Positions 31,753-37,024 of a DNA stretch of 64,000 nucleotides are shown here, in pieces. Source of the stretch: the human T2T-CHM13v2.0 reference genome, Homo sapiens; NCBI RefSeq assembly GCF_009914755.1, contig NC_060935.1; one strand, given 5' to 3'. Within the stretch, counting starts at the first letter, position 1. Each line of letters opens with the position of its first letter. Below the pieces are notes generated by a model that had not been told where the DNA came from, did not search any database, and worked only from the letters and a program-made list of their open reading frames with translations. The translations under genes and the position numbers were made by a program.

Positions 31753-32005
31753 GTATAAAAGAAACCACCATAATATTTGATAATCAGCAAACCAAAACAC
31801 AACCATTTTAAAAGAGTATTATTTTAAAAGGGTTATAATTTGTCTAAAAGGACAAAAAAGGGAATTCTCCAAAACTTACTTAGCACTTAAAGAAACTTAC
31901 TTATTTTTTTATTATATTTTATTTTTTGAGACAGGGTCTTTCTTGCTCTGTTGTCCAGGCTAGAGTGCAGTGGTACAATCTTGGCTCACTGCAACCTCCG
32001 CCTCC
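31753..32005 (+). repeat. Left arm of ~255-bp inverted duplication (partner ~36210-36464)
   Basis: Unique 31753-31896 is the reverse complement of 36318-36464 (4 substitutions, one 3-nt indel). The adjacent Alu 3' ends share private variants. Confidence 0.95.
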
Positions 32006-32215
32006 CAGGTTAAAGTGATTCTCCTGCCTCAGCCTCCCTAGTAGCTGGGACTACAGGCGCGTGCCACCACGCCTGGCTAATATATTTTTTTTTTAATTTT
32101 TTGTAGAGACGGGGTTTCACCATGTTGCTCAGGCATCAAACTCCTGAGCAGGTGATCCACCAGCCTCGGCTTCCCAAAGGGCTGGGATTGCAGGCATGAA
32201 CCACCGTGCCCGGCC
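31900..32215 (-). mobile_element. Alu, chimeric (3' end shared with the Alu at 36045, 5' part from a second Alu)
   Basis: Full dimer without a matching TSD on its current flanks. Confidence 0.9.
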
Positions 32216-32700
32216 AAAGACTGTGCAAATGTTTAAGGTTTGATATTCTTTGACAAATTTTCCTCTACATAGTTGTAGCATTTATGTTTTCACTAGCTAT
32301 AAATAAAAACACCAGTTTCCCTGTATTCACTAGTCCTTAAATCCACTAATCTTTATCATCCATCAAATTTTTTGACCGTTTGGTAAGTTAAAACACATCA
32401 TCTCATTGTTTTAGTTTGAATTATTCTATTAGTAGTAATATTGAACTTTTTTTCTATGTATTTTCTTTTGCTATATGTATTTTTTCTTTTATGTTGTATG
32501 TTTACTTTCTTTGCTCTTACTTTCCTTGGTTTTTATCTTTTTATGAATGATTTTGAAAATCTGTCTGAAAGTGCACTTCACATATTAAGCATATTAACTT
32601 ATTGTCACATTGCAAATATTTTCTCAGTATATTGTTGCTTTTGATGTTATTAAAGTTCCTTTTTGAGGTATAGTTCCAGACATTCATTTCATTAATTCTA
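32216..32700 (-). mobile_element. Old L1M fragment whose continuation lies on the + strand from 36497
   Basis: aaagactgtgcaaatgtttaagg...tctcattgttttagtttgaattatt is L1M ORF2 3'-like in antisense. Confidence 0.65.
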
Positions 32701-33852
32701 TCCATATTAGACTTAGAAAGACCCATTTCCTTTTAGACTTTATGACTCCAACTATATTATCTTCTATAACTTTTATTATTATATTTAAATATTTAAGTTA
32801 CCAAAAGTGTGTGAAGTAAAAAAATGCCTCCAACATGTTCTTCTAAAGTGATAGTTAATAGTACCTATTTCATAATTCACTTTTTCCTAGTTGATTTGAA
32901 ATTTGGGCCACAATCCCTATCTGAGCCCTTGATGCTCAATGTATTGTGGAAATTCAGATTTTTTTTGGATTTTAGAAAAGTAATGAAGTACATATCTGTA
33001 TGCATATGGTGAGAGGACGGAGCCAGATAGAGCTTCATGGATGAGGTTGGACCAATGTTGGGCCACAAAGGATTGATGGGGTTTGTCTGGATGATGGAGT
33101 CCATACCAGATGGGCAGAGAGGCAGGAGAAATACTCGAAGATAGGAACGAGTGCGTTGAGGAAACCAGTCTGAAGAGATCTTTACTAGGTAATGACCGGA
33201 AGTAGCCTTATTGGAGCTGAAAGGTACATCATGCCCAGCTTAAGCGACATTCACACTCTGCTCTATAAGGGTGGTGGCCTATCTGGCTTATTTTTTCAGG
33301 ATCCCAGAATTCTGAATGCAGTTCTCAAGTTCTTTGATTCAGATAATTACTTTAGTAGGTGAGAAATGCACAGAGAAAATGTGGTTCTTCTCTTTGGGTA
33401 GAGTAATGAGAAATTTGAATGAGGAAAAGTATGCAGGACTGGCCTCACTGAAGTGGCAGCATGAGCAGAAAGAATACAGAGACAGCCTGGCAGACGTGAT
33501 TCTCAGCTGAACTCTCAAGATGTTTTGGAGAATTCATAAACAACTTACGATGTTTTATTTGATACACTTGATTGTCCTTCTCAATTTGGTAAGTGCCAGC
33601 TTATTACCCTAAATATGTGCAGTGTGGCTGCATTTATTCCTCTCCTTTGTCTTATAAATCCCGTTTTGTCTTTTTTCCTTGGCTTAGTCTATCAATACAT
33701 TACATCACATGCATGTATATAATTTGTGGCAAAATAACTAAATGACTGAGTTAGACACTAATATTACTTTTTTCCTGAGCTCTCACCCACTGGATAATGG
33801 GGGCAAAATAACTGAATGTCTAAATCAGTTTAAAGCTTAGTTTAATCCAGTC

Positions 33853-34165
33853 TTTTTTTTTTTTTTTTTTGAGAAGGAGTCTCGCTCTGTTGCCCAGACT
33901 AGAGTGCAGTGGCACAATATCGGCTCACTGCAACCTCCGCCTCCCAGGTTCAAGGATTCTTTGACCTCAGCCTCCCAAGTAGCTAGGATTACCTGCTTGA
34001 ACCACCATGCCTGGCTAATTTTTTTTTGTTTGTTTTTGTTTTTTTAGTAGAGATGGGGTTTCACCATGTTGGCCAGGCTGGTCTTGAACTCCTGACCTCA
34101 GGTGATCTGCCCACCTTGGCCTCCCAAAGGGCTGGGAATATAGGTGTGAGCCACCATGCCCAGCC
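33853..34165 (-). mobile_element. AluS (Sx/Sz-like)
   Basis: PolyT plus full dimer. Confidence 0.93.
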
Positions 34166-35469
34166 CTAGTCATTTAAATAGTTATTTTAGGTCATGATTT
34201 CTCTCAGAAAGCCTCTCCTTTTCCCCGTTGGTTTACTTAAGGTGCAACATGGAAGAAGGGGTTGTGTGGCTTTCATATCCTCAAGGTGTTGGGGGAAGGG
34301 GCCTCTGATGTTGTGCTGCCCTTTGGAATGTACACATTGACACAGCAGCTGCTGGTCGATGGAAGGATGGCCCACATTCACTTGGCTGCTGGATGCCCCA
34401 CTGGCCTGCAGTGTGTGAACTTGTGGCCCATTCTTTTGGCTCAGGCATTTTTTATGGTGGTGCTTCCTAGATGATCCAACCTAAACTTGACTTCCTGTGT
34501 TATTAGAAACTCCTTCTAACGTCCGGCTGAAACACCCACTTGACCTTGGCTTAACTGGTCTGTGACACTATCATCACTATAGAGCCATCTTTCCTTGAGT
34601 ATGCCAATATCCTGGGACAAACATCCCAGCTTAACTCTCAGTTACTTCCATGACCTAGGACACATGAAAACCAAGCGTGGTTCAGAAAATCTCAGGCCTC
34701 CTTCCGCCTGCCTTTGATATGCCATCGTGTCGAGGTGGCTGTATCCTAGGTTGCTACAGCATAGCTTCTTCCTGTGTCTCAATATTAAGGGGAGTGGGGC
34801 AGAAGTCCCTTCTGCCTAAGCACTTGTTTTCATTTACCTGGTACTTGTCTTCCTCCCTAAGCTACACCCTGCAGAAGGAGCATTTAGGACTCACTCATCT
34901 GGCTGTTTGAGTTTTATTCTCCCTTTTCTTAGACTTCTTCCTGTATTTCCTCTAGGACAGAAGGGGCTGAAATTTTATTTTATTTCTGTGTTGTTTCTTT
35001 CTTATTCCTCACTCCAGCAAAGGTTCAACAACAGACAGAGTCCTACTCTTAACTTTAAAGGGGGAAATTTGTGGGCTGAGCCTTCTAAGTTTAACTGTGT
35101 ATATGCTAATTGGGAGGAGTAAAGGTTTTTCTTGAGAGAAAAATTTTCTCTCAAGGAAACAGCCTTTTTTGCAAGGATATTGTCTTGTTGGACAATTCCA
35201 TTGAACACTCAGCAACAATATTATTGTGACAAATTCTAGGGATGCCTGGGGGCTAGTTTTGGCAGCTTTGTACTTGCAAAGGCCTGAAAGAAAAGCACAC
35301 TGATAATTTAAAAATCATTACCCTGGTTATATTAACCATTATAATATATGAAGGACTTCTTTAAACTTGTGACATGATTAAGATATTTGAGTTGGATACC
35401 TTAGGTTCCAAGGAATAGATACTCGCTCAGATCTTCCAAATTCATGGGACATTTACTGTGAGGACATAT

Positions 35470-35880
35470 GTGACATATCTATTAGGGCTGATGGGTTGCA
35501 ATCAATGGGAGCTGATCCAGGCTAACTTAGGCAAAACCATAATTTAATAGGATGGCAGGTGGTAGCCCATGGAATTTAAGGGAAGGCCAAAGAAAGAGTC
35601 TGTAGAGAGTGGGAATCACTCCAGACATCTCGATCTAAGGGACAGTCTCTTTACAGTGCTGCTAATGGTACAGATTTTCTCTAATTCTTTATGCCTCTAA
35701 GTGGCTCCCTTCATGACTATCTCTTAAGAGAGAGGCTGATTGGCCTGGCTGGGGTCAGGGGCCCACCCCTTAGCTCGCAGAGCACAGTTCCTCCAAAACT
35801 CAGAGTGGTAGTGGAAGAAATGCAGTAGAGAGGCAGTTTGAGAGGGCAAGCTGAGTTCAGGTTAGGGCACATGGCATTCC
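35470..35880 (-). mobile_element. MLT1-family LTR fragment
   Basis: gggttgcaa...gctaacttaggcaaaa...ctgattggcctggctggggtcagggcccaccc. Confidence 0.45.
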
Positions 35881-36044
35881 TGATCATGGCAGAATATCTA
35901 AGCAAAAAGTTTATAATCTGGCTACTGAGTCAGGACTAATTTAGAACCATTTTCTCCACAGAATGTGTAAGAGCTAGAATTTATTATTATAAAAAAAAAA
36001 AAAAAAAAAAAAAACAGGAAAGGAAAAAGATCTTAGCCATTTAA

Positions 36045-36317
36045 GGCCGGGCACCGTGGCTCACACTTGTAATCCCAACAGTCTGGGAGGCCGAAGTGGG
36101 CGGATCACGTGAGCTCAGGAGTTCGAGACCAGCCTGGGCAACATGGCAAAACCCCATCTCTACCAAAAATACAAAAAACTAGCCAGGCATGGGATAATCG
36201 CTTGAGCCTGGAGGTGGAGGTTGCAGTGAGCCAAGACTGTACCACTGCACTCTAGCCTGGACAACAGAGCAAGAAACACCCTGTCTCAAAAAATAAAATA
36301 AATAAATAAATAAATAA
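36045..36317 (+). mobile_element. AluJb-like with ~45-50 nt internal deletion and (TAAA)n tail
   Basis: Left arm intact; right arm jumps from 'agccaggcatgg' to 'gataatcgcttgagcc'. Confidence 0.9.
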
Positions 36318-36464
36318 GTTTCTTTAAGTGCTAAGTAAGTTTTGGAGAATTCCCTTTTTTGTCCTTTTAGACAAATTATAACCCTTTAAATATAATACTC
36401 TTTTAAAATGGTTGTTATGCTTTGGTTTGCTGATTATCAAATATTATGATGGTTTCTTTTATAC
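36210..36464 (-). repeat. Right arm of ~255-bp inverted duplication (partner 31753-~32005)
   Basis: See the left arm entry. Confidence 0.95.
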
Positions 36465-36496
36465 AGAGCAAGACTCCGTCTCAAAAAAAAAAAAAA
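36463..36496 (+). mobile_element. Orphan Alu 3' tail (acagagcaagactccgtctc + polyA)
   Basis: Read directly; no Alu body immediately upstream. Confidence 0.88.
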
Positions 36497-37024
36497 GTTC
36501 ACGGTCTCTTTGATCCAGAAATTCCACTTCTTTTTTTATTTCAATAGTTTTCAAGGTACAGATGGTTTTCGGTTACATGGATAAGTTCTTTAGTGGTGAT
36601 TTCTGAGATTTTGGTGCACCTGTCACCCAAGCAGTATACACTGTGCCCAATATGTAGTATTTTATCCCTCACCCCCTCCCAACTTCCCCCCAAGTCCCCA
36701 AAATCCATTATATTACTCTTATGCCTTCCCATCCTCAAAGCTTAGCTCCCACTTATAAATGAGAACATATGATATCTGGTTTTCCATTACTGAGTTACCT
36801 CACTTAGAATAATGGCCTCCAGCTCCATCCAAGCTGCTGCAAAAGACATTATTTTATTCCTTTTTATGACTGAGTAGTATTTTATGGTGTATATATACCA
36901 CGTTTTCTTAATCCACTCATTGGTTGATGGGCACCTGCAAATTGTGCTGCTATAAACATGCATATGTGCATGTGTCTTTTTCTTACAATGACTTCTTTTC
37001 CTTTGGGTAAGTACCCAGTAGTAG

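What the first reader, a model, noticed from the sequence alone, without database searches (positions are those of the whole stretch)
31753..36531. Fossil ~4.2 kb inversion flanked by a ~255-bp inverted duplication: a two-step template switch between opposed Alus
Seen in sequence: (a) unique DNA 31753-31896 reappears inverted at 36318-36464, with 4 substitutions and one 3-nt indel. (b) The adjoining Alu 3' ends share private variants (ctctagcctggacaacagagcaagaaa(g/c)accctgtctc), but their 5' parts differ. (c) An orphan Alu tail (36463-36496) joins the duplicated flank through 'ac' microhomology. (d) An old L1M is broken: its upstream part is on the minus strand from 32216, and its continuation (ctttgatccagaaattccacttct...) is on the plus strand from 36497. 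Both breaks carry TSD-like sequence t(g/t)cac(a/g)gtct. Inference: the ancestor was X-AluA(-)-M-AluB(+). Replication switched from AluA into AluB by homology, copied M, AluA and X backwards, then returned to the AluB tail by microhomology (FoSTeS/MMBIR-type inversion with flanking duplication). The ~4-5% arm divergence suggests an old primate event.
Basis: partly seen in the sequence, partly recalled or inferred. Interest (0 to 1): 0.8.

Follow-up and report, generated by a model that had tools for sequence, protein, structure and literature searches.

The report
Old Alu-mediated inversion with duplicated flank
An ancient rearrangement in an intron of human DCDC1 flipped about 4.2 kb of DNA between two opposed Alu repeats and left a 257-base inverted copy of one flank; it is a well-preserved but ordinary example of a known kind of complex structural change.

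Summary
Arms 31753-32009 and 36207-36464 are a 257/258-nt inverted repeat (246 matches, 9 mismatches, 3 indels). Its unique part has only these two copies in the whole genome. The two Alus are near-identical only in their 3' ends; their 5' parts are unrelated copies. A 34-nt orphan Alu tail follows the right arm through a 2-nt overlap.

The inversion is supported from within this one genome. The head of one Alu with its target-site duplication (TSD) and the upstream part of an old L1M lie on the minus strand at 32216. The tail of that Alu, the matching TSD and the L1M continuation lie on the plus strand at 36463-36531. A ruler built from other L1M copies puts the two L1M pieces next to each other.

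Best reading: one replicative event with two template switches, the first by Alu homology in register, the second by microhomology. It duplicated 257 nt, inverted 4197 nt and deleted about 56 nt of one Alu. Two-step routes give the same product and cannot be excluded. No primate outgroup could be reached. The class is already in print, there is no sign of function, and interest is low to moderate.

The parts
31753..31896 (+). X: unique flank, the copy that is still joined to its ancestral left neighbour
   Evidence: One of only 2 copies in the genome. It matches the inverted copy at 140 of 144 positions.
31897..32009 (-). A-rich tail and 3' part of the older Alu ('AluB'), in place; this is the rest of the left arm
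   Evidence: It shares 15 non-consensus states with 36207-36317. The arm boundary lies between alignment columns 219 and 222, i.e. 32010/32007.
32010..32215 (-). 5' part of the other Alu ('AluA'), joined in register to the part above to form a chimeric Alu at 31897-32215
   Evidence: It is only 81.7% identical to the right Alu's 5' part. There is no indel against other Alus at the join.
32216..32228 (-). 5' target-site duplication of AluA; it is part of the L1M sequence
   Evidence: It matches the string that follows the orphan tail. The core cac(a/g)gtct plus tt agrees at 10 of 11 bases.
32216..32516 (-). Upstream piece of the old L1M, now on the minus strand
   Evidence: nhmmer places profile positions 31-154 at 32516-32392 with E 9e-11. 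Pairwise alignments to 9 other L1M copies run to or near its end. The spacing to the junction is collinear within about 8 nt.
32010..36206 (.). The inverted segment, 4197 nt: AluA head, L1M upstream piece, unique DNA, one further Alu at 33850-34165, and the AluB 5' part
   Evidence: It is bounded by the two arms. Its orientation follows from the split Alu, the split TSD and the split L1M.
36045..36317 (+). AluB as an inverted whole copy, with a 43-column internal deletion; 36207-36317 belongs to the right arm
36318..36464 (-). X': the inverted copy of X, ending at a new junction
36463..36496 (+). Orphan 3' end and A-tail of AluA; it overlaps X' by 'ac'
   Evidence: It starts at Alu alignment column 278 and lacks the variants of the arms. 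About 56 columns of AluA, 222-277, are missing.
36497..36511 (+). 3' target-site duplication of AluA
36506..36531 (+). Continuation of the old L1M on the plus strand
   Evidence: Profile positions 317-341, matching 22 of 25 bases of the consensus. In 6 of 9 L1M copies it aligns directly after the left piece. The reading frame is continuous.
36532..37946 (-). A later antisense L1 insertion that interrupts the L1M; not part of the rearrangement
   Evidence: nhmmer E 1.8e-53 and 2.4e-39. It has a perfect 17-nt TSD at 36515-36531 = 37947-37963.
37964..37983 (+). The L1M resumes after the inserted L1
   Evidence: Only weak: profile positions 328-362, E 0.17 in a small search. The frame is continuous.

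Best explanation
This is the fixed scar of one complex germline rearrangement in an intron of DCDC1. It inverted one segment, duplicated one flank in inverted orientation, and caused a small deletion.

The ancestor read: left flank - X - AluB (minus) - M - AluA (plus, sitting inside an old L1M with its own TSD) - rest of the L1M.

During replication or break-induced repair a growing strand copied X and the 3' part of AluB. It then switched, by Alu homology and in register, onto the opposite strand at AluA. From there it copied backwards through the AluA head, M, the whole of AluB and X. At the left edge of X it switched forward again onto the AluA tail, using 2 nt of microhomology.

The result is X plus the AluB 3' end in two inverted copies (257 nt), M inverted (4197 nt between the arms), and about 56 nt of AluA lost.

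Shown here: the architecture, both junctions and the in-register chimera.

Inferred: that it was a single replicative event; its age, roughly that of the great-ape ancestor with a wide interval; and that it has no function.
For: - Arms: 246 matches, 9 mismatches and 3 indels over 257/258 nt. X has only 2 copies in the genome.
- The left Alu is a chimera. Its 3' part equals the right Alu (15 shared non-consensus states, 4 differences in 78 columns). Its 5' part does not (46 differences in 171 columns). The join shows no indel against other Alus.
- The orphan tail at 36463-36496 differs from the arms and begins at Alu column 278. The string that follows it matches the flank of the left Alu's head in the opposite orientation.
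- L1M: nhmmer finds the minus-strand piece with E 9e-11. The plus-strand piece takes profile positions 317-341, 22 of 25 bases. In 6 of 9 fetched L1M copies the two pieces align side by side and overlap only by the TSD. The frame reads ...ICTVF then (F)DPEIPLL.
- The upstream L1M piece occurs once at 100% in the genome, so it was moved and not copied.
- The mechanism is in print for human rearrangements: a first switch by homology between inverted repeats, reverse synthesis, then a second join by microhomology (PMC11293582, passages read).
- Inversions with small gains or losses attributed to a single FoSTeS/MMBIR event are also in print (PMC6748972, passages).
Against: - No outgroup was seen, so the ancestral orientation rests on internal logic only.
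- The last ~185 nt of the left L1M piece are too decayed for the profile to find alone (no hit for 32216-32400). Continuity there rests on spacing and on ~70% pairwise alignments.
- 3 of the 9 L1M copies (L004, L006, L010) did not show the side-by-side pattern.
- Protein-level searches of both L1M pieces against solved structures found no L1 protein (one search was in the wrong frame).
- AluB's own TSD could not be shown; there is at best a shared 6-mer.
- Two-step routes give an identical product.
- Gene conversion between the arms would make the age an underestimate.
Confidence: 0.62

Rival explanations
1. Same architecture, reached in two separate events. There are two possible orders. (i) A break in AluA was repaired by copying the AluB 3' end and X from the inverted Alu, a 257-nt templated insertion; the fresh, perfect inverted repeat then mediated an ordinary recombination that flipped M. 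(ii) Ordinary Alu-Alu recombination inverted M first; a later break in the right chimeric Alu was then patched from the left one, running out into X.
For: Both orders yield exactly the present sequence (my own reasoning). Alu-Alu recombination inversions of this size are documented between human and chimpanzee: 28 Alu-mediated events, averaging 0.8-1.9 kb (PMC2603318, passages and its Table 1).
Against: It needs two rare events at the same few hundred bases. A 257-nt repeat is shorter than the repeats reported to drive recurrent human inversions, 654 nt to 24.2 kb (PMC6748972, passage). Nothing in the sequence calls for a second event.
Confidence: 0.22
2. Breakage and rejoining without replication. 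This would need staggered nicks 257 nt apart at the left breakpoint, filled in so that the stretch ends up at both ends of the flipped piece. A second break inside AluA would lose about 56 nt, and the ends would then be joined.
For: This model gives an inversion flanked by an inverted duplication of one breakpoint region; I recall it from Drosophila work and did not read it here. The right junction, with 2 nt of overlap, fits end joining.
Against: The left junction joins two different Alus at the same Alu position with no indel. Random nicks would not do that; it points to homology-guided pairing.
Confidence: 0.1
3. No inversion took place. M always had this orientation, and the L1M and TSD matches are chance or reflect two different L1M elements.
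For: The L1M near the junction is only about 70% like other copies. The plus-strand piece is just 23-26 nt before a later L1 cuts it.
Against: Three independent marks agree at the same two points. The Alu head and the Alu tail lie in opposite orientation. The TSD strings match at 10 of 11 core bases. The L1M positions are adjacent and in one frame. A 34-nt Alu tail abutting unique DNA has no other ready source.
Confidence: 0.04

Closest known systems
CNV-flanked inversions of human complex structural variation (classes dupINV, dupINVdel and the like; Collins et al. 2017, PMC5338099, passages read)
   Same: An inversion with a duplication at one breakpoint and a deletion at the other, all in cis.
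   Different: Those are rare or polymorphic variants of living people, mostly much larger. This one is small (257 nt duplicated, 4.2 kb inverted, ~56 nt deleted), about 3.5% diverged between its arms, and present in the reference genome.
DUP-TRP/INV-DUP rearrangements formed by iterative template switches between inverted repeats (PMC11293582, passages read; Alu-mediated cases at 17p13.3 are mentioned there)
   Same: The first junction is made by homology between inverted repeats and gives a chimeric repeat. Synthesis then runs in the reverse direction. The second junction is made by a few bases of microhomology.
   Different: There the segment between the repeats ends up triplicated. Here it stays single-copy and is simply inverted, because the first switch jumped ahead to the distal Alu instead of back.
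Retrotransposon recombination-mediated inversion (Alu-RMI; Lee et al. 2008, PMC2603318, passages read)
   Same: Opposed Alus sit at both breakpoints, the Alus are chimeric, and mismatched TSDs serve as the sign of the derived state.
   Different: Plain recombination makes two reciprocal chimeras and no duplication. Here only one Alu is chimeric, the other is a whole copy followed by duplicated unique DNA, and a piece of one Alu is lost.
Human polymorphic inversions with small gains or losses at the breakpoints, attributed to one FoSTeS/MMBIR event (Giner-Delgado et al. 2019, PMC6748972, passages read)
   Same: The proposed mechanism and the size range are the same.
   Different: No sign that this one is polymorphic. 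There was no hit for its CHM13 coordinates or for DCDC1 in the readable supplements of two inversion papers, but those tables may use other coordinates.

Membership tests
Inversion with flanking inverted duplication and deletion (dupINVdel-type complex rearrangement) | A stretch of unique DNA is present twice, in inverted orientation, at the two ends of a segment | tested here: met
   Arms 31753-32009 and 36207-36464 are 96.5% identical. X has 2 copies in the whole genome.
Inversion with flanking inverted duplication and deletion (dupINVdel-type complex rearrangement) | The segment between the copies is inverted relative to the ancestral state | tested here: met
   Internal markers only: the split Alu, the TSD pair in opposite orientation, and the L1M pieces adjacent on a ruler of other copies. 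No outgroup was available.
Inversion with flanking inverted duplication and deletion (dupINVdel-type complex rearrangement) | Loss of sequence at the other breakpoint | tested here: met
   AluA lacks alignment columns 222-277 between its head (which ends at 32010) and its tail (which starts at 36463).
Replicative template switching (FoSTeS/MMBIR, Alu-Alu mediated) | One junction lies inside homologous inverted repeats, in register, giving a chimeric repeat | tested here: met
   The left Alu is 3' AluB plus 5' AluA. The switch lies between columns 219 and 222 (conservatively 219-247), with no indel.
Replicative template switching (FoSTeS/MMBIR, Alu-Alu mediated) | The second junction has only a few bases of microhomology | tested here: met
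   'ac' is shared by the end of X' and the start of the orphan tail, 36463-36464.
Replicative template switching (FoSTeS/MMBIR, Alu-Alu mediated) | All junctions arose in one event | not testable with these tools
   This needs primate orthologues, to see whether intermediate states exist.
Plain Alu-Alu recombination-mediated inversion (Alu-RMI) | Two reciprocal chimeric Alus, with no gain of unique sequence | tested here: not met
   The right Alu shares its 3' end with the left one instead of carrying AluA's 3' end. In addition, 144-147 nt of unique DNA is duplicated.

The most novel reading that the evidence does not exclude
The locus is a breakpoint-intact, datable fossil of a single break-induced-replication event with two template switches that became fixed in the hominoid germline. 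If primate genomes show no intermediate state, it would be direct evolutionary evidence that the patient-type mechanism (inverted repeats first, microhomology second) also makes small fixed inversions. A bolder variant is that the 257-nt arms still allow M to flip now and then in living humans.
Probability: 0.5. Interest if true: 0.35.

Novelty: new member of a known kind. Interest (0 to 1): 0.27.

Why it matters
It shows that a complex rearrangement can be reconstructed from one genome alone, using split retrotransposons and their target-site duplications as orientation marks. It also gives a clean example with both junctions preserved.

Its value is mainly as an illustration. It could also serve as a test case for repeat-aware detection of old inversion-plus-duplication scars. 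The event lies deep in a DCDC1 intron, far from the exons in the window (15564-15734 and 25474-25566). No function is indicated.

Tried and rejected
- Protein route to L1 coordinates. Translating the left piece by reference failed on stop codons. With stops read as X, phmmer against solved structures gave only chance hits for the left piece (E 2.1). My right-hand query was one base out of frame and also gave nothing useful. I went back to DNA.
- Genome search with the presumed L1M continuation 37964-38330 found only itself.
- A lenient Smith-Waterman of that stretch against 6 L1M copies did not beat shuffled controls. The resumption of the L1M after 37964 therefore rests on the 17-nt TSD and a weak profile hit.
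- The profile found no hit for 32216-32400 alone.
- Outgroups and polymorphism. A DCDC1 + inversion + breakpoint search listed 8 of 9 papers, none about this site judging by title and abstract. Supplements of the primate SV preprint and of the ape genomes paper were not readable. Two inversion papers had no hit for the CHM13 coordinates or for DCDC1.
- Rejected: the 43-column deletion in the right Alu as the true junction. The 17 columns between it and the arm boundary differ at 4 sites from the left Alu, far more than the 3.5% within the arms.
- Rejected: the left L1M piece as a recent copy of the inserted L1. The best local alignment between them was 29 nt at 69%.
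Full report
**What is there**

A repeat scan of 31000-38500 found three collinear inverted matches: 31753-31803/36414-36464, 31799-31926/36288-36415 and 31905-32005/36210-36310. 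A gapped alignment joins them into one inverted repeat, 31753-32009 against 36464-36207. Over 257/258 nt there are 246 matches, 9 mismatches and 3 indels totalling 5 nt.

The outer 144/147 nt (X) is not Alu. A DNA search of the whole assembly with X returned two places, which are these two. The assembly is 3.1 Gb, and the window is contig 11:31248001-31312000. X is therefore a local duplication and not a repeat family, within the limits of that search, which skips very common words.

**The Alus**

I aligned the two flanking Alus, the orphan tail and 9 other Alus found in the window by blastn.

| Part of the Alu | Columns compared | Left and right differ | Shared non-consensus states |
|---|---|---|---|
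| 5' part (columns 1-221) | 171 | 46 | 7 |
| 3' part (columns 222-300) | 78 | 4 | 15 |

- The 15 shared states in the 3' part include a 4-nt insertion seen in 0 of 9 other Alus.
- The last clear difference is at column 219 (32010/36206). The first shared derived state is at column 222 (32007/36209). Because the states at columns 222 and 230 also occur in 3 and 2 of the 9 other Alus, a cautious switch interval is columns 219-247.
- The left Alu has no indel at this point relative to other Alus. It is a chimera joined in register.
- The right Alu lacks columns 162-204. The 17 columns between that deletion and the arm boundary differ from the left Alu at 4 sites, so the deletion is not the junction.

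**The orphan tail and the TSD**

Positions 36463-36496 are the last ~20 nt of an Alu plus 14 A. The tail starts at column 278. It lacks the 4-nt insertion and differs from the arms at column 295. Its first two bases, 'ac', are also the last two of the inverted X copy.

After the A-run comes gttcacggtctcttt. The flank of the left Alu's head, read in Alu sense, ends in ttgcacagtcttt. The core agrees at 10 of 11 bases, and the one mismatch is a CpG-type transition. So the head at 32215 (minus strand) and the tail at 36463 (plus strand) belong to one Alu, AluA, whose two ends now point in opposite directions. This is the TSD logic used in print to tell derived from ancestral states of Alu-mediated inversions (PMC2603318, passages).

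**The L1M test**

A genome search with 32216-32520 (minus strand) returned the locus itself at 100% plus 9 other places at 73-82% identity.

- In 6 of these 9 copies (L005, L007, L008, L009, L011, L012) the left piece aligns to or near its end, and the plus-strand piece 36497-36535 aligns directly after it. The two overlap only by the TSD.
- In 3 copies (L004, L006, L010) this pattern was not seen.
- A profile of those 6 copies, run with nhmmer over 30001-40000, found 32516-32392 on the minus strand at profile positions 31-154 (E 9e-11).
- In a small search it found 36506-36530 on the plus strand at positions 317-341, matching 22 of 25 bases of the consensus line.
- From position 146 at 32400 to the junction is 184 nt of window against about 176 profile positions, so the spacing is collinear.
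- The stretch 32216-32400 alone gave no profile hit. This is the weakest link.
- The reading frame agrees. The left piece ends ...LNICTVF and the right begins VHGLFDPEIPLL, where VHGLF is the decayed TSD copy.

The L1M continuation stops after 23 nt because a younger L1 lies there on the minus strand, at 36532-37946. Its profile hits have E 1.8e-53 and 2.4e-39. It has a perfect 17-nt TSD, 36515-36531 = 37947-37963, found nowhere else in the window. The old L1M appears to resume at 37964 (weak hit; frame). This insertion is unrelated to the rearrangement.

**Reconstruction**

Exactly one end of X can be an ancestral contact, and the right one (X' against an Alu tail fragment) is clearly new. 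The left X is therefore in place.

- Ancestor: flank - X - AluB(-) - M - AluA(+) within the L1M - rest of the L1M.
- Present: flank - X - [AluB 3' | AluA 5'](-) - inverted M - AluB(+) - X' - AluA tail - TSD - L1M.
- Net change: +257 nt in an inverted copy, 4197 nt inverted (32010-36206), and about 56 Alu columns lost.

**Mechanism**

A homology junction in register inside inverted repeats, followed by a 2-nt microhomology junction, is the signature described for iterative template switching or break-induced replication at inverted repeats, including inverted Alus (PMC11293582, passages). Inversions with small gains or losses have been ascribed to one FoSTeS/MMBIR event (PMC6748972, passage). 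CNV-flanked inversions including dupINVdel are a named class (PMC5338099, passage).

I rate the single-event reading at about 0.6. Two-step routes give the same sequence and cannot be separated without intermediate states in other primates. These are a templated insertion followed by recombination between the fresh arms, or Alu-Alu recombination followed by a patch. A staggered-break model does not explain the in-register Alu join.

**Age**

There are 9 substitutions in 255 aligned sites, which is 3.5%. The exact 95% interval is 1.6-6.6%, and the Jukes-Cantor corrected value is 3.6%. One of the 9 lies at a CpG.

By recalled genome-wide divergences (human-orangutan a little over 3%, human-macaque about 6.5%; I did not check these here), the event dates roughly to the great-ape ancestor. 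The interval reaches from the African-ape ancestor to the catarrhine ancestor. Gene conversion between the arms would make this an underestimate.

**What could not be done**

- No primate sequence is reachable.
- Supplements that might list primate or human inversions were unreadable or had no hit for the CHM13 coordinates or for DCDC1. Those tables may use GRCh38 coordinates, so this is weak evidence against polymorphism.
- A full-text search for DCDC1 + inversion + breakpoint (9 papers held all the terms, 8 listed) showed nothing on this site by title and abstract.

**Verdict**

It is a new instance of a known kind of rearrangement, intronic and without indicated function. Interest is low to moderate.

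Noticed in passing
36532-37946 (minus strand), TSD 36515-36531 and 37947-37963: A younger L1 3' fragment is inserted antisense into the old L1M only 23 nt after the Alu TSD. It has a perfect 17-nt target-site duplication and a short A-run at its 3' end.
   Followed up: yes
37023-37733: A ~710-nt insert sits inside that younger L1. It has tandem units of 24-41 nt (repeat families D4, D7 and D1). It looks like a solo LTR; the family name (LTR12-like) is only recalled and was not tested.
   Followed up: no
36192/36193: The right Alu lacks 43 alignment columns (162-204), about 15 nt from the arm boundary. The deletion is not the rearrangement junction. Whether it arose before, during or after the event cannot be told.
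   Followed up: partly
33850-34165 (minus strand): A third, complete Alu lies inside the inverted segment. Its tail matches the orphan tail at 94% over 34 nt (pair I6), which is ordinary Alu similarity.
   Followed up: partly
35985-36014: A run of about 30 A lies just upstream of the right Alu. It may be the tail of another decayed retroelement.
   Followed up: no
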